DNA of 64,000 nt. It comes from an uncultured Alphaproteobacteria bacterium. GTDB taxonomy: Bacteria > Pseudomonadota > Alphaproteobacteria > RF32 > CAG-239. Below, in pieces: positions 5,189 through 63,014 of this stretch (positions within the stretch are counted from its first letter, which is position 1; each line of letters opens with the position of its first letter). The translations under genes were made by a program, and so were the position numbers. The notes under the pieces were generated by a model, which worked only from the letters and a program-made list of their open reading frames with translations, was not told the origin of the DNA and ran no database searches. The DNA lies in the NCBI GenBank assembly GCA_947588655.1, contig CANPYS010000001.1:6391-70390 (forward strand). The letters are read 5' to 3'.

Positions 5189-5446
5189 ATTTAATCTCCA
5201 TAAATAGTTAAAAAATGCCACTTTGATGAAAGGTGGCAGGAAGTAAGAATCTATTTACGGAATAGTGTAGTATATTGGTTATAACAACCTATTTTACTAC
5301 CTTCCTGCCCTAGGCAAAAAGGTAGTGTTTTACATCTGTTTTTACAGATAACCGTAAAGAGGATTCTTGACCCCATATCAGGTATCGCCTGATACAAGGT
5401 TAGATTATCCAAAATATAATAGAAAGTCAAGGTTTAAAATAAAAAA

Positions 5447-5483
5447 AAGAGCCTTCTGTTGCTAAGCGGCTCTCAAGCTCCAC
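5447..5483 (-). terminator. rho-independent terminator oriented for a minus-strand transcript coming from the repeat region
   Basis: Plus strand reads AAAAAAAAGAGCCttctgttgctaagcGGCTCT. The minus-strand reading is a GC stem followed by a T8 run. Confidence 0.45.
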
Positions 5484-5690
5484 TTGTGGCAAACCAATGC
5501 CTCAAGAATTAAGTTTATTGCTTTCGCCTAAATTAAGCAGCGATTGCAACAGGTGCAAAATTATCATTTGCATTCATTTATTTTGAACCGGTAACGGTGG
5601 TTTCTCGCCGAACACAACATCTATCTTTACTGTTGTCCTGTCAAACCTATTTCGCCCCCTACGAAAATGTGCTAAAGCGCTTTCATGCTT

Positions 5691-5937
5691 GGGATTTTTT
5701 CGCTCATTTACGCCTTTTGTAAACTTCGCTCAAAAATCCCTGTGCAGCAAAGCACTTTATCCCATTTTCAACAGGCACCGTGCTTGCTGCCTTTCATACT
5801 TGGAATTTTTTCGCTCATTTACCCATTTTGTAAACTTCGCTCAAAAATCCCTGCGTAGCAAAGACCTTCTCCGCTTTCTTAAGGTCTTAGGGTTTTTGTT
5901 GTTTACGCCTTTTGTAAACTTCGCTCAAAAATCCCTT
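5691..5937. repeat. three tandem imperfect ~50-85-bp units, each an internal palindrome GGGATTTTTT...AAAAATCCC
   Basis: Units at 5691-5740, 5802-5851 and 5890-5937 share ...ttttttcgctcatttacSccttttgtaaacttcgctcaaaaatccct... Flanks are also similar (ctttcatRcttgg / tgYgYagcaaag). Extra hairpin AAGACCTT...AAGGTCTT at 5860-5888. Confidence 0.8.
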
Positions 5938-6220
5938 TAATTGGTGGAGGCGCCGGGTACTGCCCCCGGGTCCAATACACCTATTCCATAGTGTTTTTCG
6001 TGTCAAAGTCGGTTGCCCGACTATTTCTATTATATCTCTTAAACAAAAGAAAGCAAGCTTTTTATTAAAAAACTATTCTTTTGTTTGTTTCAATTCATCT
6101 TTTTAATGTATCCGCTATCTATTCGGTTATATCATTTTGACCGATGTTAGCTCTGTTTTGAGGTATATATTTTTTTTGCTTTCAATCATTTGGCGTCAAA
6201 GTTGCAGTTGAGGAAAATTG

Positions 6221-26275: not shown

Positions 26276-26543
26276 AATCAACAACTTATCAACAAAATGC
26301 ATGCAAAAAAAGGTACCTTTAAATGTGCATTTTGTCAAGCAAAAAATTTTGAGATATTTCAAAAGGTTATTTTCTTGATGAAATGTGCATTTAAACGTAC
26401 GTTTTTTTGAGAAGATTCTCAAAGGTCATCCTGAACTCGTTTCAGGATCTCATAAAAAAAGATGCTGAAACAAGTTCAGCATGACATTTGGGGCGTTCAG
26501 CATGACGATTCGGATGGAGAACTTTATAATTAAGGAGTAAAGA
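26276..26543 (+). promoter_or_regulatory. conserved ~250-bp upstream cassette of paralog family (copy 1)
   Basis: AAATGTGCATTT at 26321-26332 and 26381-26392. TGAGAAGATTCTCA. Hairpin arm1 26424-26453 / A7 / arm2 26461-26485. TGACGATTCGG. RBS TAAGGAG. Confidence 0.75.
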
Positions 26544-27593
26544 ATGAAGTACGTTTTATTTTTAGTTATGGTTTTGTTTTCAAATCAGGCGGTGGCGCTG
26601 AATTGTGAAAAGCAACCGACATGTGAGGAGTTAAATTATTCCAAAGAAGATGATCCACAATGCGCCGATGACGGCTATATCTTATGTCCGTTTGACTTTT
26701 CCTATAAAAAATGTTTACAGCCTGATTGTGAAAAATTAGGTTTTACATCATCTGAAAAATCAGGTTGGTGTTCTGAAATTATTACTTGTCCGCAAGATTC
26801 TTCTTATACGGCTTGCAACTGTCTTAAGCCACGTTGCAACATCGGCGATGTGTTGTATGCGGACAGCTCTTGTGGCGATGTCAAAGATTACAGCGAAGAT
26901 AAAGTTGCGGTTGGTGTGGTTTATTACACAAACTGCGATGGTGGTGGCAAGGTGATTAGTCTTAAAGATTTAACGCTTGATTCAAACTATGTTTTTCACC
27001 CAACAGAGCCTTTTGGCAACACCGCTCTTTACAAGTTTCCTTGGGGACTTTCTGGCGTAACTGTTCCAGGCTTGAAATATAAGTGGGCTACTAATGAACA
27101 ATTCTTGCTCGCTCTTCAAACAAGAGATCCTGACTTTTTCAACGGCGAAAAAGATACGCAAACTTTGATTAATTTCAAGAAAGACTCTTGCTCTTATGAT
27201 GAAGGCACAAAAGGATATGCTGAGTATTGCGTGGCGACGGCGGCTTTGGCGGCGCATCAATTTTATCCGCTTGGCGTTGAGCCAAACAATACGATTGTCG
27301 GCGCAGGGCGTTGGTATTTGCCCTCTCTTGGCGAGCTAACCGAACTTTATGGCTATGATTATGACCAAGTTACGACATGGGATACTGGAAAAACGGGCAA
27401 AACAAAAGAAAAAGTCACTCAGACGCTTACAACGCTTGAAGGCAAAGCGGAACCTTTAAAAAATATTGAATACTGGGCTTCAATTGAATACTCTGGAGAT
27501 ATTGCTTATGAATTGAAAGCTGACGGTTCTATCAGCAAATATTATAAAAAAGATCCGCACTGCGCTGTCCGCGCCAGTTTGAACTTTCGGTAA
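26544..27593 (+). CDS. secreted Cys-rich paralog P1: conserved N-module plus DUF1566/Lcl-C-like C-terminal domain
   Basis: Signal peptide ...QAVA|LNCE. N-module NCEKQPTCEELNYSKEDDPQCADDGYILCPFDFSYKKCLQPDCEKLGFT. C-terminal WYLPSLGEL, YWASIEY and ...HCAVRASLNFR match DUF1566-type motifs. Confidence 0.8.
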   Translation: MKYVLFLVMVLFSNQAVALNCEKQPTCEELNYSKEDDPQCADDGYILCPFDFSYKKCLQPDCEKLGFTSSEKSGWCSEIITCPQDSSYTACNCLKPRCNIGDVLYADSSCGDVKDYSEDKVAVGVVYYTNCDGGGKVISLKDLTLDSNYVFHPTEPFGNTALYKFPWGLSGVTVPGLKYKWATNEQFLLALQTRDPDFFNGEKDTQTLINFKKDSCSYDEGTKGYAEYCVATAALAAHQFYPLGVEPNNTIVGAGRWYLPSLGELTELYGYDYDQVTTWDTGKTGKTKEKVTQTLTTLEGKAEPLKNIEYWASIEYSGDIAYELKADGSISKYYKKDPHCAVRASLNFR

Positions 27594-27831: not shown

Positions 27832-28102
27832 TTCAAGAATTTATCAACAAAATGTGTGCAAAAAAAGGTACCTTTAAATGTGCATTTTGTCAAGCAAAAA
27901 ATTTTGAGATATTTCAAAAGGTTATTTTCTTGATGAAATGTGCATTTAAACGTACGTTTTTTTGAGAAGATTCTCAAAGGTCATCCTGAACTCGTTTCAG
28001 GATCTCATAAAAAGAGATGCTGAAACAAGTTCAGCATGACTTTTGGGGTCGTTTCAGGATGACGATTCGGATGGGAGGACTTTTTTATTTAAGGAGTAAA
28101 AA
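27832..28102 (+). promoter_or_regulatory. conserved upstream cassette (copy 2)
   Basis: Near-identical to 26276-26543 including both hairpins and palindromes. Confidence 0.75.
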
Positions 28103-29029
28103 ATGAAGTACGTTTTAATTTTAATAGCAATTTTGTTTTCAAGTCAGGCGGTGGCGCTGAATTGTGAAAAGCAACCAACCTGCGAGGAGTTAAATTATTC
28201 CAAGGAAGACGATCCTCAATGTGCTGAGGACGGTTATATTCTCTGTCCGTTTGACTTTTCCTATAAAAAATGTTTACAGCCTGATTGTGAAAAATTAGGC
28301 TTTACACAATCGGATAAATCATTATGGTGCAATGAAATTGCTTCCTGTCCGTTCAACGCCTCTTACACGCTTTGTAATCGCAAAGCCGTGCAATGTAAGG
28401 TTGGCGATGTGTATTACGCAGATGACACTTGCGGTTCTTCCAATAATCTGGACACTACTAAAATTCCGGTCGGCGTTGTGTTTTATGTGACAGCTGACGG
28501 ACGTCACGGTCGCGTTTTGGCTTTTGATGAGTTCCAAGGAGCCTACAGCGCAATGAATTCAATCAGCGCCGCCTTACCTTTGTTTACCTGTGAACAAGTG
28601 TTGGACGGTTTGAAAAAAGGAAATCCGGATTTATATGATGGTCAAGCGCAAACCCAAAAAGTTGCCGCGCTTGATTCGCAAAGTGCCGCCGCCAAAGCTC
28701 TTGAATATTATCCTCAAGAAATTGACCCTGATACACCTTACACCGGCAAAGGAAACTGGTATTTGCCAACACTTGGCGAGTGGGAGTGGCTTTATGACCA
28801 TGAATTTATAGACAAATGCCCGATTTCATCAGGTGGAAATAATTACGCCAACATTCCTATTGTACCTGTCTTAAAAAAGCTTGGAAAGAGCGGCATGCGG
28901 ACAGACCGTTTTTGGTCGATTAACTTATTTTCATCTAAACAAGCGCTTTATTTTGGCACCACTTACGGGGATATAGATTCCAAACTTCTGCTTTATCAAT
29001 ATTATATTCGTCCGATTATGAAATTTTAA
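28103..29029 (+). CDS. secreted Cys-rich paralog P2
   Basis: First ~95 aa about 90% identical to P1. Divergent middle. C-terminal WYLPTLGEWEWLY, FWSINLF and ...YYIRPIMKF. Confidence 0.8.
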   Translation: MKYVLILIAILFSSQAVALNCEKQPTCEELNYSKEDDPQCAEDGYILCPFDFSYKKCLQPDCEKLGFTQSDKSLWCNEIASCPFNASYTLCNRKAVQCKVGDVYYADDTCGSSNNLDTTKIPVGVVFYVTADGRHGRVLAFDEFQGAYSAMNSISAALPLFTCEQVLDGLKKGNPDLYDGQAQTQKVAALDSQSAAAKALEYYPQEIDPDTPYTGKGNWYLPTLGEWEWLYDHEFIDKCPISSGGNNYANIPIVPVLKKLGKSGMRTDRFWSINLFSSKQALYFGTTYGDIDSKLLLYQYYIRPIMKF

Positions 29030-29109: not shown

Positions 29110-30588
29110 ATGATGGATGAAAAAAATAAAATCGGTCTTCTACCGGCAACTTTGATGGTTGCCGGCAATATGATGGGTTCAGGTGTGTTTATGTTACCTG
29201 CCAATTTGGCGGGCATCGGGAGCATTGCCATTTTCGGGTGGTTGATTACCGTTGTGGGCGCTATTTGTTTGGCGCTTGTCTTTTCCAAACTGACGCAAAT
29301 TTATCCGGCGGCGGGCGGTCCTTATGCCTATGCCAAAAAAGCGTTCGGTAATTATATGGGTTATCAGACAAACTTGGTTTATTGGCTTGCCAATGTGGTT
29401 GGCAATGTGGGGCTTGCCGTGGCGGGACTCGGCTATTTAACAACTTTTTTCCCCACGCTTAAAGATCCGCTTGTCATGGCGTTTGCGCAAATTGCCGTCA
29501 TATGGTTTTTTACTTATGCCAATATTTTAGGTCCGAATGTGGTTGGCCGTTTGCAAAGTATGACCACCATTTTAGCCTTAGTTCCGATTATCGGTATGGC
29601 GCTTTTGGGCTGGTTTTGGTTTCATGCCGATACGTATATGCAAGGTTGGAATGTGACCGGTAAGAGCGATCTGACGGCTATTGGGATGACGCTTAATTTT
29701 ACGCTTTGGGCGTTTATCGGTGTGGAAAGCGCTTCCGTTTCAACGGCGGTGGTGAAAAACCCCACCCGCAATGTGCCGATTGCAACAGTTGCCGGTGTGA
29801 TTTTAGCCGCTGTTTGTTATGTTTTGAGCTCCAGCGCGATTATGGGCATTATTCCGAGCTCAGAGCTGATGTCTTCTTCCGCGCCGTTTTCGCAAGCGGT
29901 TGCCGTTGCCCTTGGTCCGACAGCCGGCGATATTGTGGCGGCATGCGCCGCGATCGGTTGTCTTGGTTCGCTCGGCGGTTGGACGCTTTTGGTCGGGCAG
30001 ACGGCAAAAGCCGCCGCTGATGACGGTTTGTTCGGGCGCGTGTTTGCCTGCACCAACAGCAAGGGCGTGCCGGCTTCCGGCTTGGCTATTGTCGCCGGCA
30101 TTATGACATTGCAGGTTTTGGCAACCATGTCGCCGACTGCCTCGGAGCAATTTGGCAAAATTGCTTCCATTGCCGTGATTTTGACCTTATTGCCTTACAT
30201 TTATTCTTCGGTGGCAATTAAGATTATCGGGCGCGATAAAATAGATGCTAAGCAAGGCGTGTTTTATACGGTTGTCGGCTTAATCGGTGCTTTTTATTCC
30301 ATGGCGGCAATGATTGGTTCTGATCCGGCGCAAACCCGTTGGGCTTTGATGTTTGTGATTGCTACCATTATCTTTTATGAATTGGCGGAAGAGCGTCAAT
30401 GGGCGATGGGCGAGAACCCCGAAGGCATTAAATGTATTGTGCCATCATGGGTGCGTCATTTAACTTTGCTTGTGACCATTTTGGCGCTTGTTGTTATGTT
30501 TTGGATTTCGTTTGGCGAAAACAGCGCGCTTATTCACCGCACCAAGAGCCACTTTCCGGTGGTTGAACAGCTTGAAAATTTGAGTTAA
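29110..30588 (+). CDS. adiC: arginine:agmatine antiporter-like APC-family transporter
   Basis: Long near-identical blocks to E. coli AdiC: KIGLLPATLMVAGNMMGSGVFMLPANLA, VAGVILAAVCYVLSSSAIMGIIP, GCLGSLGGWTLLVGQTAKAAADDGLF. Confidence 0.75.
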   Translation: MMDEKNKIGLLPATLMVAGNMMGSGVFMLPANLAGIGSIAIFGWLITVVGAICLALVFSKLTQIYPAAGGPYAYAKKAFGNYMGYQTNLVYWLANVVGNVGLAVAGLGYLTTFFPTLKDPLVMAFAQIAVIWFFTYANILGPNVVGRLQSMTTILALVPIIGMALLGWFWFHADTYMQGWNVTGKSDLTAIGMTLNFTLWAFIGVESASVSTAVVKNPTRNVPIATVAGVILAAVCYVLSSSAIMGIIPSSELMSSSAPFSQAVAVALGPTAGDIVAACAAIGCLGSLGGWTLLVGQTAKAAADDGLFGRVFACTNSKGVPASGLAIVAGIMTLQVLATMSPTASEQFGKIASIAVILTLLPYIYSSVAIKIIGRDKIDAKQGVFYTVVGLIGAFYSMAAMIGSDPAQTRWALMFVIATIIFYELAEERQWAMGENPEGIKCIVPSWVRHLTLLVTILALVVMFWISFGENSALIHRTKSHFPVVEQLENLS

Positions 30589-30602
30589 GAAAGGAGTGAG
30601 AA

Positions 30603-32900
30603 ATGCATCAAAATAAAAATCCGTTCGGGGTGAAAATTTTACTTTCCTATGAGGAGCTTGAGCGCGATACCGCGGCGGCGCGCGCGGTTCGGCATTTGCA
30701 GACCGATTTGGCAGATGATGATACGGAAATTATTGTCGCAGAACATTTAGAAGACGCTCGCGCTATTTTTGCAAGCGACGCCGGCATTCAATGTGTGTTG
30801 ATGGGCCTAGAATGTCAGTATTGCTCCAACACTTATGAGGTTTTGGATGTTCTTCGGGCGCAAAATCCGACCGTGCCGATTTTTTTGATGTCAAGCCGCA
30901 ATATGGCCTCGCAAATTCCGACTTCTGCGCTTGAAAAAGTGAGCGATTTTATTTGGCTTTTGGAAGATACCACCGATTTTATTTCAGGACGAATCCGCGC
31001 CGCGATTGAGCGTTATCGTTCCTTTATCCTGCCGCCGATGTTTAAGGCATTGGCACGGTTTGCCAAAATTCATGAATATTCGTGGCACACCCCGGGGCAT
31101 ACAGGCGGAACGGCGTTTTTGAAATCTGCCGTCGGACGCGACTTTTTTAATTTTTTCGGCGAACAGGCGTTTCGTTCCGATCTTTCCATTTCCGTTGGCG
31201 AGCTTGGCTCTATGCTTGACCATACTGGTCCTATCGGGGAAAGCGAAAAATATATGGCGCGTGTGTTTAATTCTACCCGCAGTTATCATGTTACCAACGG
31301 TTCGTCCACCTCTAACCGCATTATCTTAACGGCAAGTGTGACACGTGATGAAATTTGCTTGTGTGATAGAAATTGTCACAAATCGGTAGAGCATGCGATG
31401 ACGCTTTCAGGCGCTATCCCGACTTATTTAGTTCCGACCCGCAACCAATACGGCATTATCGGCCCGATTTTGCCCGAGCGTTTAACGCCCGAGGCCGTTA
31501 AGCAGGCCATTGATGAAAACCCGCTTGTGAGCGAGCGCATTGATCATCAGCCCAAGCATGCCATTATCACAAACTCCACTTATGATGGCTTGTGTTATAA
31601 TGTTACGCAAGTGCGCGACTTGTTAGGGCAAAGTGTTGACCGCTTGCATTTTGACGAGGCTTGGTACGGATATGCGCGCTTTAATCCGATTTATGAGGGG
31701 CGTTATGCGATGTGTTGCAATCCGCAAACTTATGATAAATCGCAACCAACTGTTTTTGCCACACAATCCACGCACAAGCTTTTGGCGGCCTTCTCGCAAG
31801 CCTCTATGATTCATGTGTTGGAAGGGCGCAACCCGATTGACCATGTCCGCTTTAACGAATCGCTGATGATGCACTCGTCCACATCGCCGCTTTATCAGAT
31901 TATTGCCTCTAATGATGTGAGCGCGGCAATGATGGATAACGGAGGTGGCAAAACCTTGACCGATATTTCCATTCGTGAAGCGATTGATTTCAGAAAAACA
32001 GTGGCGCGAATCCATAAAGAATATGGCGATAATGATGATTGGTTCTTTAATATTTGGCAACCGGATCAGGTTCGTATCCCCGAAACGGGTGAAAAAGTGC
32101 CGTTTTATGAAGCGCCTGACGACCTTTTGGCGACTATGCCCGATTGTTGGGTTTTGCACCCTGATGAAGCTTGGCACGGTTTCGGCGCTATTGCAGATGG
32201 TTATTGCATGCTTGATCCGATTAAAGTTTCAGTCACAACCCCCGGCGTGATGCCTGATTCATCGCTTGCCGATTGGGGCATTCCGGCGGCGCTTTTAACG
32301 GCTTATTTGGATAATAAGGGCATTATTGTTGAAAAGACGACCGATTTTACCATTCTGTTCCTCTTCTCAATGGGTGTGACAAAAGGGAAATGGGGCACGC
32401 TCTTAAACGCTCTCTTTGCCTTTAAAGATGATTATGACAACAATGTGCCGCTTTCGCGCATCATGCCCAAAATTTACCACGCAGATGAAACAAAATATGC
32501 TTCCATGGGGTTGCGTGATTTAAGTGTGGAAATGTTTGAGGCGATGAAATCTTTGGGAACAACCAAAGCCCTTTCGGCGGCGTTTTCCGTCCTTCCGCAT
32601 CCGGATATGACGCCTGTTGAAACGCATGAGCAACTTGTTAAAAATAATGTGGAATCGCTTACGCTTGATGAAATGGAGAATCGCACCGTTGCCACCGGCG
32701 TTGTTCCATATCCGCCAGGAATCCCGATGTTAATGCCTGGTGAAAATGCAGGCCCTTCAGACGGTCCGCTTCTCGGTTATCTCAAAGCCTTGGAAGCCTT
32801 TGATCAAAGATTCCCTGGGTTTGGGCATGATACGCATGGGGTGGAAGTAGTGGCTGGTTCCGGCAAATACCGCATTCTATGTTTAAGAAAAGGCGTATAA
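30603..32900 (+). CDS. adiA: biodegradative arginine (Orn/Lys/Arg family) decarboxylase, fold-I PLP enzyme with N-terminal wing domain
   Basis: 765 aa. Blocks WLLEDTTDFISGRIRAAIERYR, KIHEYSWHTPGH, DRNCHKS, RLHFDEAWYGYARFNPIY and IPYPPGIPML align best with AdiA. PLP-Lys in ...STHKLL... Confidence 0.65.
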   Translation: MHQNKNPFGVKILLSYEELERDTAAARAVRHLQTDLADDDTEIIVAEHLEDARAIFASDAGIQCVLMGLECQYCSNTYEVLDVLRAQNPTVPIFLMSSRNMASQIPTSALEKVSDFIWLLEDTTDFISGRIRAAIERYRSFILPPMFKALARFAKIHEYSWHTPGHTGGTAFLKSAVGRDFFNFFGEQAFRSDLSISVGELGSMLDHTGPIGESEKYMARVFNSTRSYHVTNGSSTSNRIILTASVTRDEICLCDRNCHKSVEHAMTLSGAIPTYLVPTRNQYGIIGPILPERLTPEAVKQAIDENPLVSERIDHQPKHAIITNSTYDGLCYNVTQVRDLLGQSVDRLHFDEAWYGYARFNPIYEGRYAMCCNPQTYDKSQPTVFATQSTHKLLAAFSQASMIHVLEGRNPIDHVRFNESLMMHSSTSPLYQIIASNDVSAAMMDNGGGKTLTDISIREAIDFRKTVARIHKEYGDNDDWFFNIWQPDQVRIPETGEKVPFYEAPDDLLATMPDCWVLHPDEAWHGFGAIADGYCMLDPIKVSVTTPGVMPDSSLADWGIPAALLTAYLDNKGIIVEKTTDFTILFLFSMGVTKGKWGTLLNALFAFKDDYDNNVPLSRIMPKIYHADETKYASMGLRDLSVEMFEAMKSLGTTKALSAAFSVLPHPDMTPVETHEQLVKNNVESLTLDEMENRTVATGVVPYPPGIPMLMPGENAGPSDGPLLGYLKALEAFDQRFPGFGHDTHGVEVVAGSGKYRILCLRKGV

Positions 32901-33042
32901 CCGCTCATCTAGAGGCGTTTTTACGGGTCTCGGGAAATTCACGTACCTCTTTTGTACGCTGGAATTTCCCTCGCCCTTAAAACACCTCTATCTAAACGGT
33001 TCTCCGCCTTTCCACGGCTTGGGAGAAAATTAAGAAAACGTC

Positions 33043-33078
33043 CATTTCAAAATGGACGTTTTTTGTTTTTGTGCTTAC
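33043..33078 (+). terminator. rho-independent terminator after adiA (repeat copy also at 42757-42790)
   Basis: AAAACGTCCATTTCAAAATGGACGTTTTTTGTTTTTG. Confidence 0.7.
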
Positions 33079-33109: not shown

Positions 33110-33377
33110 GTCTCAAAAAAACGTACGTCATTATTTACAACTTGTCAAGTGAAAAAAATTGGGTTTTTCAATAACTTATTTTTGCAAAAAAATGCACAAA
33201 AAAACGTACGTTTTTTTGAGATAGGGAAAAACTTTCTCTCAAACGTCATGCTGAGCTTTGGTGCGTTAGCACCATTCGCGAAGCATCCAGGAACAGTATA
33301 GCTAATTTGTTGTCCTGGACTCTTCGCCTGCAGCTCAGAGTGACGATTCGGCAGAGTTCGTAATTAAGGAGAAAAAA
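33110..33377 (+). promoter_or_regulatory. degenerate copy of the upstream cassette (copy for P3)
   Basis: Retains AAACGTACGTTTTTTTGAGA core, GTCATGCTGA, TGACGATTCGG and TAAGGAG. Central hairpins replaced. Confidence 0.55.
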
Positions 33378-34562
33378 ATGAAGTATGTTTTATTTTTGAT
33401 GTTGGTATTGTTTTCAAGTCAGGCGGTGGCGCTTAATTGTGAAAGGCAACCGACTTGTGAAGAATTGGGTTATTCTACGCAAAATAATCCAAACTGTTTA
33501 GATGACGGTTATTTAATTTGCCCGTTTGATTCTAATTATAAGAAATGCGTCAACTTTAGTTGCGAATCGCTCGGGTTTACGCTATCCGATAAATCGGGCT
33601 GGTGCGCTGAAACAATAGAATGTAAAGGTGATAAAAGTTATACTCTTTGCAAAACATCTTGTATTGCTTGGGATTCTGATACGCTTTCCATGCTTGCCGA
33701 ATCGGGCAAATGTAAGCTCATCACGATGAAAAATGACATCACGCTTTCAGAAGATAAGCTCAACGTTTCCGCAAACACCATGATTGACGGTGGTGGGCAT
33801 ACGCTTCATGTGTCGGCGAATATAAACCCGATAGATTTACAAGCGAACAGCGGTCTCAAAAATCTTAACTTGGATGTAAAGGGTACCGGCGTTAAACAAG
33901 GTTATATTCTTCTTCCGCAAGGTAATGGAGTTCTCTTTGAAAACCTGACGGTTGCGGTTTCTGGCATGACACAAAAATATAATGCAGGGCTTGTTGGTAT
34001 GTCAAATTTTTCTGCCGAATTTAGAGGTCAAACAAATCTGAATTCAAATTATTATAGTGTCTTTTTCAATAGTGATCATATTAACTTTACAAATGCGCAA
34101 GCCACTCTTTTTGCCGCTAATGATTTAATGAAAAGTTCCAACGTCACACTTCACAATTCCACACTTGATATTACAATGAGTACTGTTCTCATGACGCGCT
34201 CTAAATTAACGCTTTACAATTCCACACTCCATTTTACAGGCACACATTTGTTCTGGACAGGAAGTTCAACGGTAGAAAATGTCTTGACAATCGGGGAGGG
34301 TTCCACCGCGGTGATTAAAGTTTCAAACGGTCTGAATATGGAAAGTACTAGAAAATCAAATTTTGTGTTAAGCGGGACAGCAGATGCGCCAGCAAAGTTA
34401 GAAATTACGACACCTGATAAAAATAATAATGAAACATATATCACAGCTCATAACATAACGGATACGCTTGTCTTAAATAACAAGACATATCATCCAACGC
34501 AAACAGCTACAACGCTTATATCGGATGTTCCAAACTCAAGTTATTGGCGCGCTGTGCCATAG
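33378..34562 (+). CDS. secreted Cys-rich paralog P3: conserved N-module fused to parallel beta-helix-like C-terminal domain
   Basis: N-terminal 95 aa homologous to P1/P2/P4/P5 (NCERQPTCEELGYS...CPFD..YKKC). Remainder has repetitive NxT/beta-strand periodicity (LHNSTLDIT..., LYNSTLHFT...) and lacks the DUF1566 motifs. Confidence 0.7.
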   Translation: MKYVLFLMLVLFSSQAVALNCERQPTCEELGYSTQNNPNCLDDGYLICPFDSNYKKCVNFSCESLGFTLSDKSGWCAETIECKGDKSYTLCKTSCIAWDSDTLSMLAESGKCKLITMKNDITLSEDKLNVSANTMIDGGGHTLHVSANINPIDLQANSGLKNLNLDVKGTGVKQGYILLPQGNGVLFENLTVAVSGMTQKYNAGLVGMSNFSAEFRGQTNLNSNYYSVFFNSDHINFTNAQATLFAANDLMKSSNVTLHNSTLDITMSTVLMTRSKLTLYNSTLHFTGTHLFWTGSSTVENVLTIGEGSTAVIKVSNGLNMESTRKSNFVLSGTADAPAKLEITTPDKNNNETYITAHNITDTLVLNNKTYHPTQTATTLISDVPNSSYWRAVP

Positions 34563-34633: not shown

Positions 34634-35248
34634 ATGGATTACGTTAAAATAGAAGGCGAGCGTTTTGTTGTCCGGTTGATGTATGCCGGCATGCAAAATA
34701 TGAGCGGTCGGGCTGTTTATCAGGAAACAGGCTGGGGAAATGTGGCGGTGGTGCATCGGGATTTGTTTGCGGCGTTGCAAAAGACGGTGCCTATTTTGGA
34801 AAAGCACAATCTTTATATGCTCATTTTTGATGCGTATCGCTTGCCTGATGCGCATAATATGTTGGTGCAAGCTGTACCGTTTGGTCTTTTTGCGCCTGAG
34901 CCGAAATTATCGGCGCATTGTCATGCCACGGCGGTGGACGTGTGTCTTGCCGATGAAAATCTTCAACCTCTGAAATATCCGACACCTGTTGATAATTATA
35001 CACCTCAAAATGCGGCGGCTGTTCGTTTTGGACATATCGCCCCTTTTGAAAGGGATATGCTTAAAGCCCGTCATGATTATCAAGACGCCGCACCCAAGGA
35101 AAAATCAAATCGTCTTTTCTTAAAAAAATTAATGGAAGGCGTTGGTTTGGAAAGCTTGGACTCGGAATGGTGGCATTATTCTTTGCCTGAAGGTCTTCTT
35201 GAGGAAAAATACCCGCTTATCAGTTTGTTTTCGGAAGATTTTGAATAA
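34634..35248 (+). CDS. D-alanyl-D-alanine dipeptidase (VanX/DdpX-like, M15D)
   Basis: SAHCHATAVD (SxHxxGxAxD-type zinc site) and EWWHY (E-W-H catalytic motif). Start at MDYVKIEG. Confidence 0.6.
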   Translation: MDYVKIEGERFVVRLMYAGMQNMSGRAVYQETGWGNVAVVHRDLFAALQKTVPILEKHNLYMLIFDAYRLPDAHNMLVQAVPFGLFAPEPKLSAHCHATAVDVCLADENLQPLKYPTPVDNYTPQNAAAVRFGHIAPFERDMLKARHDYQDAAPKEKSNRLFLKKLMEGVGLESLDSEWWHYSLPEGLLEEKYPLISLFSEDFE

Positions 35249-42921: not shown

Positions 42922-43387
42922 AATCAATAACTTATCATCAAAACATGTGCAAAAAAAGGTACCTTTAAATGTGCAATTTGTCAAGAAAAATTTTTGAGAT
43001 TTTTCAAAAGGTTATTTTCTTGATAAAACGTGCATTTAAACGTACGTTTTTTTGAGAAATGTGTATAGCGGCACATCTAAAGCCGTTTTTTCAAGTTCGG
43101 AAAATTCACGTACGTCTATGTACGCTCAAATTTTCCTCACTTTTGAAACGACTTTATCTGCACCACTCTCCACATTTCTTTGGCTAGAACAAGAGAGGGA
43201 AAGTCTCTCTAAAATGTCATTTCCAAACTCGTTTCGGGATCTCATAAAAAGAGATGCTGAAACAAGTTCAGCATGACATTTGGGGTGTTTTGGGGATGAC
43301 GATTCGGAAGAGTTTGTTGTCCTAGACTCTTCGCTGACGCTCAGAGTGACCATGACGGCGGAAATAGTGACGAACAAGGAGGAAAGA
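42922..43387 (+). promoter_or_regulatory. upstream cassette (copy for P4), interrupted by ~150 bp of unrelated repeat sequence
   Basis: First half 42922-43050 matches the cassette (AAATGTGCAATTT..., AACGTGCATTTAAACGTACG). 43055-43205 differs (shares gaaaattcacgtac...tacgct with 32926-32990). Arm2/TGACGATTCGG/RBS resume at 43205-43387. Confidence 0.6.
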
Positions 43388-44506
43388 ATGAGGTATGTTT
43401 TATTTTTAATAGCAATTTTGTTTTCAAGTCAGGCGGTAGCGCTGAATTGTGAAAAGCAACCAACCTGTGAAGAATTAAATTATTCTAAAGAAGATGATCC
43501 GCAATGTGCCGATGACGGCTATATCTTATGTCCGTTTGACTTCTCATACAAAAAATGTGCACAGCCTGATTGCTCAAAAATGGGCTTTACACACTCCAAT
43601 AAATCCGCTTGGTGTGAAGAAATTATTTATTGCCCGCAAGATAACACATATTCTCTTTGCAAAACACTCCAACTGCAATGTGAAATCGGCGATGTCTTTT
43701 TTGCCGACCGCACCTGTGGCAAAGCTTCCGATTGGTCAAAAGAAAGTGGCAAAATCCCTGTGGGCATTGTTTATTATGTGGAAGAGGGCGGGCGCCACGG
43801 ACGCGTGATAAACCTCAAAAACCTTTGGCGCGGTTCGGATTATCTTTTTCATGCTGATAGCCCTTACAGTGGCTTAAGTGATTACATGCCTTGGGGCTAT
43901 CAAAATTATGACCTTACATCTCTTAAAAACTATGATGGCTCGCCTGAAATTTTGAATGCTTTGCAAACGCGCGATCCCGATTTGTACAAAGGCGAAGAAA
44001 ACACAAAGCTGATTTTAGAAGCCAAAGCTCCGGATTGTGCTTATCAAAAGAATACCAAAGAATACGCTCAGTATTGTGTGCCGACGGCGGCTTTGGCGGC
44101 ACATCAATTTTATCCGCCTGAAGCCGGTGCGGATAACCTTTATGTCGGGCAGGGTAAGTGGTATTTGCCTTCATGGGGCGAGTGGATGGAAGTTTATGGC
44201 TATGATAATAGTCAAATTGTGTGTGGCGGACCTCAAAATTGTACGACGGCAGATTCAGCAAATAATGAGGGAACGTCAGGCGCTGTCGGTGATCATAAAA
44301 AATTAATTGAAACTGCGCTTCAAACACTTCAAGAAAAAGGCGCTGGTGCCGAAAAACTTGTCAGAGGTCCTTTTTGGAGTTCCACGGAATATGATTCATT
44401 CAGTGCGCGTACGTTTTATATGGACTCAGGCCATCGTTCAGCATACAATAAAAAGAATGCTGATAATAATTATCATGCGTACGTTCGCGCAAGCCTGAAG
44501 TTTTAA
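43388..44506 (+). CDS. secreted Cys-rich paralog P4 (DUF1566/Lcl-C-like C-terminus)
   Basis: AAGGAGG RBS, MRYVLFLIAILFSSQAVA|LNCE. C-terminal KWYLPSWGEWMEVYGY, FWSSTEY and ...YHAYVRASLKF. The longer ORF-track start at 43280 has no RBS. Confidence 0.8.
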   Translation: MRYVLFLIAILFSSQAVALNCEKQPTCEELNYSKEDDPQCADDGYILCPFDFSYKKCAQPDCSKMGFTHSNKSAWCEEIIYCPQDNTYSLCKTLQLQCEIGDVFFADRTCGKASDWSKESGKIPVGIVYYVEEGGRHGRVINLKNLWRGSDYLFHADSPYSGLSDYMPWGYQNYDLTSLKNYDGSPEILNALQTRDPDLYKGEENTKLILEAKAPDCAYQKNTKEYAQYCVPTAALAAHQFYPPEAGADNLYVGQGKWYLPSWGEWMEVYGYDNSQIVCGGPQNCTTADSANNEGTSGAVGDHKKLIETALQTLQEKGAGAEKLVRGPFWSSTEYDSFSARTFYMDSGHRSAYNKKNADNNYHAYVRASLKF

Positions 44507-61670: not shown

Positions 61671-62744
61671 TTAAAATGTTGTCATCGGGCGGATTCTATA
61701 GCTCCTATCTGTCCATTCTATAGCTGTTTTATAACTTCCAAGATTAAATGTCCAAAATGTTCTGCTATCAAAGAAAGTGGAAGAATAGTAATAGTTGGCA
61801 AGGGATTGCGCTTTCCCTTTTTGTTGAAGCCTAGATAATGTGGTGTTGATTTGATCAAGGTAAACTTGTTTGTAATCAGGCTGACGATTATATTCATTCT
61901 CCCAAACAAGTGTGGTATAACCTGTTCCAACAACATCTATCCATTCGCCTAAGGAAGGTACATACCATTTGCCTTTGCCCAAGTGCGCATCATCTGCCGA
62001 AACGCCTTCAGGATAAAAAGCCATAGCGGCTCTTGGCCCAGGGGTGTCGCAATACTCAGCATAACGAAGTGTGCCTTTCTTATCTGAAGGTTGGCAACCA
62101 TCGCCAATGGTTTGCGGAGTTTCAACAAAGGCGGCTTTTGTGGCGCTTAAGCCGTCCCAAAGCCAAGTGTCATGCTTTGTAAAGGCTGATAAAATGCTAT
62201 TTGTATTATAGGTGTGCGTTCCTAATCTTTCATAATGGTAACCACCGAATGGTATTTCTTTAATACTTCCGCCAAAGGGATTCTGTTCGTCAAAGGTGTA
62301 GTCATCTTGAAGTGTTAAATCGTTTAATGCAAGGATTTTGCCGTGCGTTCCCTCGGTGTTTACGGTTACCACCACGCCGACAGGTATTTTAGAACCATTT
62401 GAGTCATAATCTTTGGCATAACCGCAAGTCCCATCCGCATAATAAACATCACCAATTTCGCAAAGGGCTTTACATGCCGTGTAGGTTTTATCGTTCGGAC
62501 AAAAGGCAAGCTTGCCACACCAATCCGATTTTTCAGACTTTGTGTAACCCATTTTTTCACAATCAGGCTGTAAACATTTTTTATAAGAGAAGTCAAACGG
62601 ACAAAGAATATAACCGTCCTCAGCACATTGTGGATCATCTTCTTTGGCATAATTTAACTCCTCACAGGTTGGTTGCTTTTCACAATTCAGCGCCACTGCT
62701 TGCTTTGAAAATAAAATCATCATTAAAAATAAAACGTACTTCAT
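61671..62744 (-). CDS. secreted Cys-rich paralog P5 (DUF1566/Lcl-C-like C-terminus)
   Basis: TAAGGAG RBS, MKYVLFLMMILFSKQAVA|LNCEKQPTCEELNYAKEDDPQCAEDGYILCPFDFSYKKCLQPDCEKMGYT. KWYVPSLGEWIDV, YYSSTFFD, ...YRIRPMTTF. Confidence 0.8.
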   Translation of the reverse strand: MKYVLFLMMILFSKQAVALNCEKQPTCEELNYAKEDDPQCAEDGYILCPFDFSYKKCLQPDCEKMGYTKSEKSDWCGKLAFCPNDKTYTACKALCEIGDVYYADGTCGYAKDYDSNGSKIPVGVVVTVNTEGTHGKILALNDLTLQDDYTFDEQNPFGGSIKEIPFGGYHYERLGTHTYNTNSILSAFTKHDTWLWDGLSATKAAFVETPQTIGDGCQPSDKKGTLRYAEYCDTPGPRAAMAFYPEGVSADDAHLGKGKWYVPSLGEWIDVVGTGYTTLVWENEYNRQPDYKQVYLDQINTTLSRLQQKGKAQSLANYYYSSTFFDSRTFWTFNLGSYKTAIEWTDRSYRIRPMTTF

Positions 62745-63014
62745 TTTTTCCTCCTTATTTACAGACTCCACCATCCGAATCGTCATACTGAAACGATCCC
62801 AAATGTCATGCTGAACTTGTTTCAGCATCTCTTTTTATGAGATCCTGAAACGAGTTCAGGATGACCTTTGAGAATCTTCTCAAAAAAACGTACGTTTAAA
62901 TGCGCATTTCATCAAGAAAATAACCTTTTGAAAAATCTCAAAAAAAAATCCTTGACAAATTGCGCATTTAAACGTACCTTTTTTTGCACACGTTTTGATG
63001 ATAAGTTGTTGTTT
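62745..63014 (-). promoter_or_regulatory. upstream cassette (copy for P5, minus orientation)
   Basis: Reverse complement matches copies 1 and 2. Here both 12-mers are the perfect palindrome AAATGCGCATTT. Confidence 0.75.

What the first reader, a model, noticed from the sequence alone, without database searches (positions are those of the whole stretch)
33378..34562. Domain-swapped paralog: the same N-module fused to a beta-helix-like C-terminal domain
P3 keeps the conserved Cys-rich head. After residue ~100 it lacks every DUF1566-type motif. Instead it shows repeating ~22-25-aa units rich in N-x-T/S and alternating hydrophobics (LHNSTLDITMSTV / LYNSTLHFTGTHL / VLTIGEGSTAVIKVSNG). Such units are typical of right-handed parallel beta-helices (pectate-lyase/adhesin fold). 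Its upstream cassette is also the most diverged copy. This indicates modular shuffling of effector or adhesin tails onto a common secretion/folding head.
Basis: partly seen in the sequence, partly recalled or inferred. Interest (0 to 1): 0.55.

Follow-up and report, generated by a model that had tools for sequence, protein, structure and literature searches.

The report
Variable secreted beta-helix protein family member
This gene encodes a secreted protein with a small cysteine-rich head and a beta-helix body, one of a large recombining family in uncultured gut Alphaproteobacteria, and each family gene sits behind what looks like a flippable promoter, so it is probably part of a switchable repertoire of surface or binding proteins.

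Summary

This is not a one-off swap. Head plus beta-helix is an established family, with at least 17 copies in a sister rabbit-gut MAG. In 1.84 billion representatives the tail is found only behind this head.

The gene is a mosaic. At the same locus, one strain keeps the head and the last ~35 aa but has an unrelated core (~40% nt identity). A second genome keeps the core (93-97%) but has a different head and C-terminal end.

The "upstream cassette" is a candidate invertible promoter. Two palindromic sites flank TTGACA-N17-TACGTT. It faces away from the gene in all five window copies and 30 of 33 tallied copies overall. It is exactly inverted, towards the gene, in two or three.

No catalytic residues are conserved. 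The best reading is a phase-variable, recombining adhesin-like repertoire. The function, the route across the outer membrane and active switching are inferred, not shown.

The parts
33033..33064 (.). Bidirectional terminator-like hairpin that ends the upstream decarboxylase gene. The outward-facing promoter of the cassette fires towards it.
33111..33139 (.). Left inverted-repeat arm of the upstream cassette, with palindromic core AAAAAAACGTACGT.
   Evidence: I1: 29 nt, 83% complementary to 33193-33221
33193..33221 (.). Right inverted-repeat arm. It is itself a perfect palindrome, CAAAAAAACGT/ACGTTTTTTTG.
   Evidence: I1, I5
33120..33148 (-). Sigma-70-like promoter TTGACA (33148..33143) - 17 nt - TACGTT (33125..33120), facing away from the gene. 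The -10 lies inside the palindromic site.
   Evidence: All five window copies have the same geometry, and 30 of the 33 gene copies tallied have it facing away.
33241..33348 (+). Long nested hairpin module in the 5' leader. The whole leader 33219-33380 folds at -56.4 kcal/mol, z -4.5, and the outer stem reaches the Shine-Dalgarno region.
33366..33371 (+). Shine-Dalgarno AAGGAG.
33378..33434 (+). Signal peptide (aa 1-19, ...AVA|LNC). The A-x-A is a signal-peptidase-I type site and there is no lipobox.
   Evidence: Read from the sequence. AF2 pLDDT <50 for residues 1-19.
33435..33662 (+). Cys-rich head (aa 20-95) with ten invariant Cys. It is two tandem ~30-aa modules, C-x2-LG[YF][ST]-x6-7-C-x5-7-C-x8-C.
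   Evidence: AF2 pLDDT 91.4. No PDB analogue. No Pfam or NCBIfam hit.
33663..33812 (+). Conserved start of the beta-helix (aa 96-145): helix 100-109, invariant C112, and the ITMKNDITL...NTMIDGGGHTL motif. It is distantly related to the PF20585 'pectate lyase-like adhesive domain'.
   Evidence: 62% mean pairwise identity; hhalign 97%, E 7e-11
33813..34442 (+). Hypervariable beta-helix core (aa 146-355), with an Asn ladder at N239/N260/N281. It is replaced as a block between strains at this locus.
   Evidence: (25% mean pairwise identity)
34443..34562 (+). Conserved C-terminal cap (aa 356-394, TDTLVLNxxTYHPT...S..W) plus the stop codon. It forms the downstream homology arm for core replacement.
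   Evidence: (pLDDT 91-97)
26544..27593 (+). Paralog A: same head, DUF1566-like tail. Its cassette is at 26309-26405 with the promoter facing away.
28103..29029 (+). Paralog B: same head, DUF1566-like tail. Its cassette is at 27864-27960 with the promoter facing away.
43388..44506 (+). Paralog D: same head, DUF1566-like tail. Its cassette is at 42955-43050 with the promoter facing away.
61671..62744 (-). Paralog E: same head, DUF1566-like tail. Its cassette is at 62886-62982 with the promoter facing away.

Best explanation
P3 is one member of a multigene repertoire of Sec-exported, two-part proteins in uncultured gut Alphaproteobacteria.

Shown:
- It has a signal-peptidase-I type signal peptide.
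- It has a ~75-aa head with ten invariant Cys, built of two tandem 4-Cys modules. The head is confidently modelled and has no known fold relative.
- The tail is a right-handed parallel beta-helix of about ten coils. Its first coils are distantly related to the PF20585 adhesive-domain family.
- The helix core is hypervariable (25% identity among 29 members) between well-conserved ends.
- The gene is a recombinational mosaic. At this same chromosomal locus one strain has swapped the core and another genome has swapped the head and the C-terminal end.
- Every family gene, with either tail type, is preceded by a cassette of two palindromic sites flanking a consensus -35 hexamer. The -10 is supplied by the palindrome itself.
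- In P3 and most copies this promoter points away from the gene. In two or three paralogs the inner segment is exactly inverted and points into the gene.

Inferred:
- The cassette is an invertible promoter, and most family genes are kept OFF while a few are ON (phase variation).
- The conserved head and C-terminal cap serve as homology arms for gene conversion between paralogs and strains.
- The beta-helix is a non-enzymatic binding surface (adhesin or lectin-like), exposed outside the cell and diversified to change ligand specificity or to escape antibody or phage recognition.
- The head is the shared module for export, anchoring or disulfide-stabilised presentation.
For: Architecture and paralogs.
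Family size and restriction: 16 clusters at 90% identity; at least 17 full-length copies in MAG GCA_947630965.1. The tail profile against 1.84e9 representatives gave 30 hits below 1e-10, and every strong full-length hit starts at residue 96.
Distant link to adhesive beta-helices.
Conservation profile: head 0.67, N-cap 0.62, core 0.25, C-tail 0.48. The only invariant tail residues lie in the first coils and the cap.
Same-locus core replacement: L082 is 96% identical downstream but about 40% identical across 33708-34440.
Reciprocal mosaic: in L002 the flanks are 94% and the core 93-97% identical, but the head is about 60% and the C-terminal end about 65% identical, with dS saturated in the head.
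Head module shared across tail classes.
Cassette anatomy.
Orientation tally: 30 away, 2 toward, 1 double. The reverse-complement junctions fall exactly at GGTACC in L008 and in the L014 minus-strand gene. No divergent gene is available for the outward promoter to serve, and terminators lie just upstream.
The host is diderm and alphaproteobacterial: alpha_tmRNA and OMP beta-barrel genes.
No phage relation.
Against: No experiment or read-level data show switching. At the three loci checked across 3-5 independent samples, the assembled orientation was always the same: P0010 toward in 3/3, P0113 away in 5/5, P0130 away in 3/3.
No recombinase gene is present among the window ORFs that were scanned. 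None was found by a crude search of about 955 kb of held loci.
dN/dS of the core shared with the L002 ortholog is 0.32. This equals the neighbouring M15 peptidase gene (0.31), so there is no evidence of positive selection on point substitutions.
Surface exposure is not shown. There is no lipobox, no autotransporter barrel and no recognised outer-membrane export signal, so by default a Sec substrate in a diderm is periplasmic.
The AF2 alignment is shallow (16 sequences) and residues about 170-250 have pLDDT 56-80.
No ligand is known.
Confidence: 0.6

Rival explanations
1. The tail is a carbohydrate-active enzyme (a pectate, alginate or other polysaccharide lyase, a GH28-type hydrolase or an epimerase). 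The family diversifies to cover different dietary or host glycans.
Against: P3 has no Pfam or NCBIfam hit to any lyase or hydrolase family, and the PDB sequence-profile search finds nothing. In the 16- and 29-member alignments no acidic or basic residue is invariant in the core. The invariant positions are structural: the DGGG.T turn, the Asn ladder and the cap. The best structural match and the only sequence-level link are to adhesive domains. The helix is short (about 280 aa) and has no predicted large loops or accessory domains to form a cleft.
Confidence: 0.12
2. The cassette is not a switch. The palindromes are operator sites for a regulator, or remnants of a small mobile palindromic element. 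The orientation is fixed at each locus, and the two or three inverted copies are rare historical rearrangements. The family is then an ordinary, conventionally regulated set of secreted or periplasmic paralogs.
For: Orientation is identical across all samples at each of the three loci compared. 30 of 33 copies share one orientation. No recombinase was found nearby. The cassette and leader consist of repeated palindromic modules that resemble REP/MITE-like elements.
Against: A perfect TTGACA at a fixed 11 nt from the site, with a 17-nt spacer to TAC[CG][CT]T, is conserved across three different inner-segment types. It points at a terminator and at no gene, which is hard to explain unless it is sometimes turned round. 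The inverted copies are clean reverse complements bounded exactly by the palindrome cores. No alternative conserved promoter towards the gene was seen by eye. Assemblies report only the majority orientation, so minority flipping would be invisible.
Confidence: 0.3
3. P3 is a periplasmic structural or chaperone-like beta-helix protein (compare NosD or AlgG-type periplasmic beta-helices). It would have a housekeeping role linked to its neighbours, the M15 D-Ala-D-Ala-type peptidase and the acid-resistance decarboxylase and antiporter.
Against: A housekeeping periplasmic protein would not be expected to exist in at least 17 copies with 25% core identity, nor to have its core replaced between near-identical strains. 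Other family members have unrelated neighbours, so the M15 link is specific to this locus.
Confidence: 0.08

Closest known systems
Binding region of the Lactobacillus reuteri serine-rich repeat protein (SRRP-BR, PDB 5NXK) and the Pfam family PF20585 'putative pectate lyase-like adhesive domain'
   Different: Sequence identity is 13%. P3 itself gives no PF20585 hit. SRRPs are large Gram-positive glycoproteins with LPXTG anchors (the PDB entry describes the protein as LPXTG-anchored). P3 is a 394-aa protein of a diderm, with a Cys-rich head and no anchor motif.
DUF1566 / Lcl C-terminal domain (PF07603) paralogs of the same genome
   Same: They share the signal peptide and the 10-Cys head (60-68% identity). 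They have the same upstream cassette design and a similar size.
   Different: The tail is unrelated in sequence and P3 has no PF07603 hit. The junction after the head is specific to each class...CQTPC[IL]AW or CQSPCFAT in beta-helix members against ...CKALCE[IV]G in DUF1566 members.
Beta-helical passenger domains of type V autotransporters and multigene Pmp-like families (pertactin, UpaB, Vag8, Fap2)
   Different: P3 has no C-terminal beta-barrel translocator and no PF03797 hit. The protein ends in a compact cap at residue 394.
Invertible promoters (invertons), such as E. coli fimS and the Bacteroides fragilis capsular-polysaccharide promoters
   Same: A promoter sits between inverted repeats upstream of surface-related genes. 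Many loci in one genome share the same repeat, and most copies are in one orientation with a few flipped. Invertons near surface genes are common in gut bacteria (PMC11892184, PMC11602134).
   Different: The element is very small (73-85 bp between sites). Each site is itself a palindrome that also supplies the -10 hexamer. The recombinase is not identified, and no within-population heterogeneity has yet been shown. I found no description of this for this lineage of gut Alphaproteobacteria, but I did not search for one specifically.
Gene-conversion-based variable surface proteins (for example Neisseria pilE/pilS and Treponema TprK; from my own knowledge)
   Same: Conserved ends flank a variable central cassette, and there are sharp recombination breakpoints at this locus.
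   Different: No promoterless silent cassettes were seen. Every copy is a complete gene with its own promoter cassette. The exchange is documented here only between strains, not within a clone.

Membership tests
Right-handed parallel beta-helix (pectin-lyase-like fold) | Stacked three-strand coils that form a right-handed helix, recognisable by structural similarity to solved members | tested here: met
Right-handed parallel beta-helix (pectin-lyase-like fold) | Sequence repeat of about 22 aa with an Asn ladder | tested here: inconclusive
   [FLIV]xN[AS] occurs at 237, 258 and 279 with 21-aa spacing, and N260 and N281 are nearly invariant. Global autocorrelation at 20-25 aa is not significant (z<=1.9).
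PF20585 Pectate_lyase_5 (putative pectate lyase-like adhesive domain) | Match to the Pfam HMM at or above the gathering score (24.3 bits) | tested here: not met
   P3 has no hit at E<=10. Two of 16 family members hit (best E 8.5e-5). hhalign of the family profile to a PF20585-bearing protein gives 97% probability, E 7e-11, over 128 columns. P3 is therefore a distant relative, not a member by Pfam's rule.
DUF1566 / Lcl_C (PF07603) and FISUMP (TIGR02145) | Match to the family HMM in the C-terminal region | tested here: not met
   There are 0 hits for P3 at E<=1 and at E<=10 for the tail alone. There is no BLAST similarity to the DUF1566-like tails of the window paralogs.
Polysaccharide lyase / GH28-type beta-helix enzymes | Conserved catalytic Asp, Arg or Lys residues (or Ca-binding acidic residues) on one face of the helix | tested here: not met
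   The invariant tail positions are A97, L106, A107, S109, G110, C112, T116, D120, I121, D137, G138, G139, T142, N162, Y371, S387 and W390. None lies in the core coils 146-355. There is no hit to lyase or hydrolase families.
Type V autotransporter | C-terminal outer-membrane beta-barrel (PF03797) | tested here: not met
   There is no Pfam hit. The protein ends in a beta-helix cap at residue 394.
Bacterial lipoprotein | Lipobox [LVI][ASTVI][GAS]C at the end of the signal peptide | tested here: not met
   The sequence is AVA|LNC. The residues before Cys21 are A-L-N here and x-D/N/E in relatives.
Invertible promoter (inverton) | Inverted repeats flanking a promoter upstream of the regulated gene | tested here: met
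   The IR arms are 33111-33139 and 33193-33221. TTGACA-N17-TACGTT lies between and within them. All five window copies have the same design, as do the copies found upstream of family genes in the sister MAG. This is a consensus match only.
Invertible promoter (inverton) | Both orientations of the same segment occur | tested here: inconclusive
   Between paralogous loci the answer is yes: 30 face away, 2 face toward and 1 is double, with exact reverse-complement junctions. At the same locus across samples no difference was seen (3/3, 5/5 and 3/3). Read-level data were not available.
Invertible promoter (inverton) | A cognate site-specific recombinase | tested here: inconclusive
   None was found among the 20 window ORFs scanned with Pfam. 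A Hin-like tblastn and a crude tyrosine-recombinase motif search of 955 kb of held loci also found none. The rest of the genome could not be searched.

The most novel reading that the evidence does not exclude
Uncultured gut Alphaproteobacteria may run a previously undescribed surface-variation system. It would consist of dozens of genes for secreted binding proteins with beta-helix or DUF1566-lectin tails. All would be presented on one novel disulfide-rich head domain. Each would be controlled by its own miniature inverton, in which the palindromic recombination site doubles as the -10 element. The binding cores would be exchanged between paralogs and strains by recombination in the conserved head and cap. 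This would combine ON/OFF switching with cassette shuffling in a clade where neither has been reported.
Probability: 0.35. Interest if true: 0.72.

Novelty: new variant of a known kind. Interest (0 to 1): 0.55.

Why it matters
Gut Alphaproteobacteria of this type are known only from metagenome bins, and their host-interaction genes are essentially unannotated. None of the head-bearing proteins has a Pfam domain for the head, and most tails have none either. This locus provides three things. First, it gives a concrete, testable picture of how such an organism may vary its exposed proteins: a shared head, two interchangeable binding-tail classes, block replacement of the beta-helix core at a fixed chromosomal site, and a compact candidate inverton in front of every gene. 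Second, it yields a confidently modelled ~75-aa disulfide-rich domain with no structural relative. Third, it offers a sequence signature (palindrome - 11 nt - TTGACA) for finding these switches in metagenomes. If the switching is real, it extends inverton-controlled surface repertoires, best known from Bacteroides, to a new bacterial class and a new protein family.

Tried and rejected
1. The word-indexed homologue search with the head alone (100 aa) returned no candidates and cost one search. The head distribution was recovered instead from the genome scan and from a full-length paralog query.
2. The afdb50 fold library was unavailable.
3. The PDB sequence-profile search with the tail gave only a chance-level hit (E 0.17).
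4. Pfam scans of eight long head-bearing proteins from other MAGs gave no informative domain.
5. Two JGI metagenome scans for the cassette gave 0 and 4 hits, and the four look like chance matches. This lineage seems absent from that collection.
6. I looked for same-locus orientation differences in 3-5 ENA samples at each of three loci and found none. Two contigs break inside the invertible segment (L102, L103). Because the segment is a multi-copy repeat, this is not evidence of inversion.
7. N-glycosylation-sequon enrichment is not significant.
8. Global 22-aa periodicity is not significant.
9. Positive selection on the core is not supported (omega 0.32, the same as the neighbouring gene).
10. 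A phage origin or tailspike homology by sequence is not supported: there is no PHROG hit and no tblastn hit in 50,697 phage records.
11. Rfam has no family for the leader or the cassette.
12. A literature search for DUF1566 with beta-helix paralog families found nothing relevant.

Full report
**Observation**

The ORF lies exactly where stated, at 33378-34562 on the + strand. It is 394 aa, starts with ATG and has a strong AAGGAG ribosome-binding site at 33366-33371.

A tblastn of residues 1-100 against the window finds four further copies. They start at 26544, 28103 and 43388 on the + strand and at 62744 on the - strand. They are 60-68% identical over 91-96 residues, with E 1e-39 to 1e-42.

Residues 96-394 match nothing else in the window (best E 1.4). 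A five-way alignment shows a common signal peptide and a 10-Cys head, after which P3 departs completely from the other four.

P3 has no Pfam, NCBIfam or PHROG hit. It gives none to DUF1566/PF07603 even at E<=10. The other four tails are DUF1566-like. The window copies score only weakly (Lcl_C E 0.15; FISUMP E 0.055). However, 13 of about 65 related clusters carry a precomputed PF07603 hit.

- The sequence repeat is local. [FLIV]xN[AS] occurs at residues 237, 258 and 279, and no significant 20-25-aa period exists over the whole tail.
- The N-x-S/T richness is explained by composition (11 observed against 7.1 +/- 2.2 expected).

**Fold of the tail**

AlphaFold2 on a 16-sequence family alignment gave pLDDT 78.1 and pTM 0.68. 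There is a short helix at residues 100-109, followed by about 30 short strands from residue 114 to the end. Confidence is above 87 for the C-terminal half.

At the sequence level the family is not in Pfam. Even so:
- A profile of the tail reaches long proteins that carry PF20585 ('putative pectate lyase-like adhesive domain') or PF13229.
- Two of 16 members hit PF20585 directly.
- hhalign to one PF20585-bearing protein gives 97% probability over the first coils, around the motif DITL...IDGGGHTL.

**A family, not a one-off swap**

A search with the tail alone found 16 clusters. All are about 400 aa and all carry the same head.

A scan of one genome per species found at least 17 full-length head-plus-beta-helix genes in a single rabbit-gut MAG (GCA_947630965.1, labelled uncultured Alphaproteobacteria). 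That MAG also holds at least nine head-plus-DUF1566 genes.

An exhaustive HMM search of 1.84 billion representative proteins gave only 30 hits below 1e-10. Every strong full-length hit begins at residue 96, that is, directly behind the head. The fusion is therefore old relative to these genomes and restricted to a narrow lineage.

The head motif (C..LGY...C....CPFD..YKKC) is much more widespread. It occurs in many gut Alphaproteobacteria MAGs in front of tails of 100-1,900 aa, and the tails tested have no Pfam domain. The host is an alphaproteobacterium (alpha_tmRNA at 5445-6060) and a diderm (OMP beta-barrel genes).

**The head**

The mature head has ten invariant Cys. It reads as two tandem modules, C-x2-LG[YF][ST]-x6-7-C-x5-7-C-x8-C.

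The signal peptide ends in A-V-A|L-N-C. This is a signal-peptidase-I site and not a lipobox.

**Mosaic structure**

Across 29 distinct family members the mean pairwise identity by region is as follows:

| Region | Mean pairwise identity |
|---|---|
| Head | 0.67 |
| First coils (N-cap) | 0.62 |
| Core (aa 146-355) | 0.25 |
| C-terminal cap | 0.48 |

Two natural alleles of this very locus show how that pattern arises.
- Contig L082 comes from a conspecific strain (96.2% nt identity over the 7 kb downstream). It carries a gene with a closely similar head (about 83% nt identity) and an identical last ~35 aa. Its centre, 33708-34440, is only about 40% identical at the nucleotide level, with sharp edges.
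- The syntenic gene in the sister MAG (L002, flanks 94% identical) shows the reverse. It keeps the core at 93-97% but has a head only about 60% identical and a C-terminal end about 65% identical. Synonymous divergence in the head is saturated.

Head module 1 of P3 is 93% identical to that of several DUF1566-type proteins. It is only about 60% identical to the DUF1566 paralogs in its own window.

The gene is thus assembled from at least four exchangeable segments, and the conserved ends behave as homology arms.

I found no evidence for positive selection on point substitutions. Omega for the shared core is 0.32, against 0.31 for the neighbouring M15 peptidase gene and 0.04 for the decarboxylase. 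The diversity comes from replacement, not from accelerated substitution.

**The upstream cassette**

The five window copies share an upstream element. Its core is two palindromic sites 73-85 bp apart. In this window they read AAAGGTACCTTT or AAACGTACGTTT; in the MAG they read TTTAAAGGTACCTTTAAA.

A perfect TTGACA lies exactly 11 nt inside one site. It sits 17 nt from TAC[CG][CT]T, which is part of the palindrome and so can serve as a -10 in either orientation.

In P3 the arms are 33111-33139 and 33193-33221, and the promoter is on the minus strand (33148..33120).

In all five window copies the promoter faces away from the gene. It points towards the 3' end and terminator of a co-directional upstream gene.

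Across the family genes tallied in the held loci and the window, 30 face away. Two face the gene: P0010, a beta-helix type, and P0154, a DUF1566 type on the minus strand of L014. One gene (L007) has a distal copy facing it and a proximal copy facing away.

In the flipped copies the inner segment is the exact reverse complement of the usual one, with junctions at the GGTACC cores. This is the anatomy of an invertible promoter, with most family genes OFF.

Invertons next to surface genes are well known in gut bacteria (PMC11892184, PMC11602134).

Limits of this evidence:
- At three loci compared across 3-5 samples, the assembled orientation never differed.
- No recombinase was found in the window or in the held flanks.
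- Assemblies show only the majority state.

I rate active switching at about one in two.

**The leader**

Between the cassette and the start codon lies a leader built of long hairpin modules. The P3 leader folds at -56.4 kcal/mol (z -4.5), and its outer stem reaches the Shine-Dalgarno region.

P3 uses the CCAGGA...TCCTGG module type that is common in the MAG. Paralogs A, B, D and E use a different module type.

**Function**

No acidic or basic residue is invariant in the core coils. The invariant positions are structural: the DGGG.T turn, the Asn ladder, Cys112 and the cap.

That pattern, together with the adhesin-type best matches, the extreme core diversity, the multi-copy family and the switch-like promoters, favours a non-enzymatic binding protein presented outside the cell. 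An enzyme role is the main rival (about 0.12) and a periplasmic housekeeping role is a minor one (about 0.08).

How the protein would cross the outer membrane is unknown. There is no autotransporter barrel, no lipobox and no recognised sorting signal. There is no sequence link to phages.

**Verdict**

The finding becomes more interesting once the locus is read as part of a recombining, probably phase-variable repertoire with a structurally novel head.

Each ingredient has known precedents: beta-helix adhesins, invertons, and variable cassettes between conserved ends. I therefore class it as a new variant of a known kind, with interest 0.55.

Noticed in passing
L014:2748-2833: An orphan copy of the promoter cassette sits between two convergent family genes, with terminator hairpins on both sides and no gene to serve. 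It may be a remnant of a larger rearrangement between cassettes.
   Followed up: partly
L007:5695-5971: Two cassettes lie in tandem upstream of one beta-helix gene. The distal one (84-bp type) faces the gene and the proximal one (73-bp type) faces away.
   Followed up: partly
window 33219-33380; also 26405-26543, 27960-28102, 43050-43387 and 62745-62885 (-): The 5' leaders of the family genes are built from interchangeable long-hairpin modules, of at least two types. The P3 leader folds with z -4.5 and its outer stem overlaps the Shine-Dalgarno. No Rfam family matches.
   Followed up: partly
L086-L089, L082, L102, L103 (contig ends): Metagenome contigs very often end within a few hundred bases upstream of family genes, and twice inside the invertible segment itself. 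The multi-copy repeat would explain this, but it could also reflect orientation heterogeneity.
   Followed up: no
window 5445-6060 (-): A two-piece (permuted) alphaproteobacterial tmRNA gene (RF01849, 195 bits). It confirms the class of the host.
   Followed up: no
window 29110-32900 (+): An amino-acid permease or antiporter gene and a 765-aa Orn/Lys/Arg-type decarboxylase gene lie directly upstream of P3. This looks like an acid-resistance pair. They are 94% identical to the sister MAG, and the decarboxylase is under strong purifying selection (omega 0.04).
   Followed up: partly
L002:7502-13000, compared with window 35250 onward: Synteny with the sister MAG breaks right after the M15 peptidase gene. 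The MAG carries umuC/umuD-like genes (IMS, Peptidase_S24), WYL, RNase_T and DnaB_C genes and a 1391-aa autotransporter there. This suggests an inserted mobile element.
   Followed up: no
L065, L067, L071, L073, L076 (CAVBCV01...): A genome labelled 'Lachnospiraceae bacterium' holds at least five genes with the alphaproteobacterial Cys-rich head motif, one of them 1,737 aa long. The bin is probably mislabelled or mixed.
   Followed up: no
window 34634-35248 (+): A VanX-like M15 peptidase gene follows P3 after 72 nt, with no obvious terminator, in all three genomes that share this locus. It may be co-transcribed with P3 when the promoter faces the gene. Its omega (0.31) is unusually high for a housekeeping gene.
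   Followed up: partly
window 33711 (Cys112 of P3): The family has an odd number of invariant cysteines: ten in the head plus Cys112 in the first coil. This implies either a free thiol or a head-to-helix disulfide. The pairing could not be read from the tool output.
   Followed up: no
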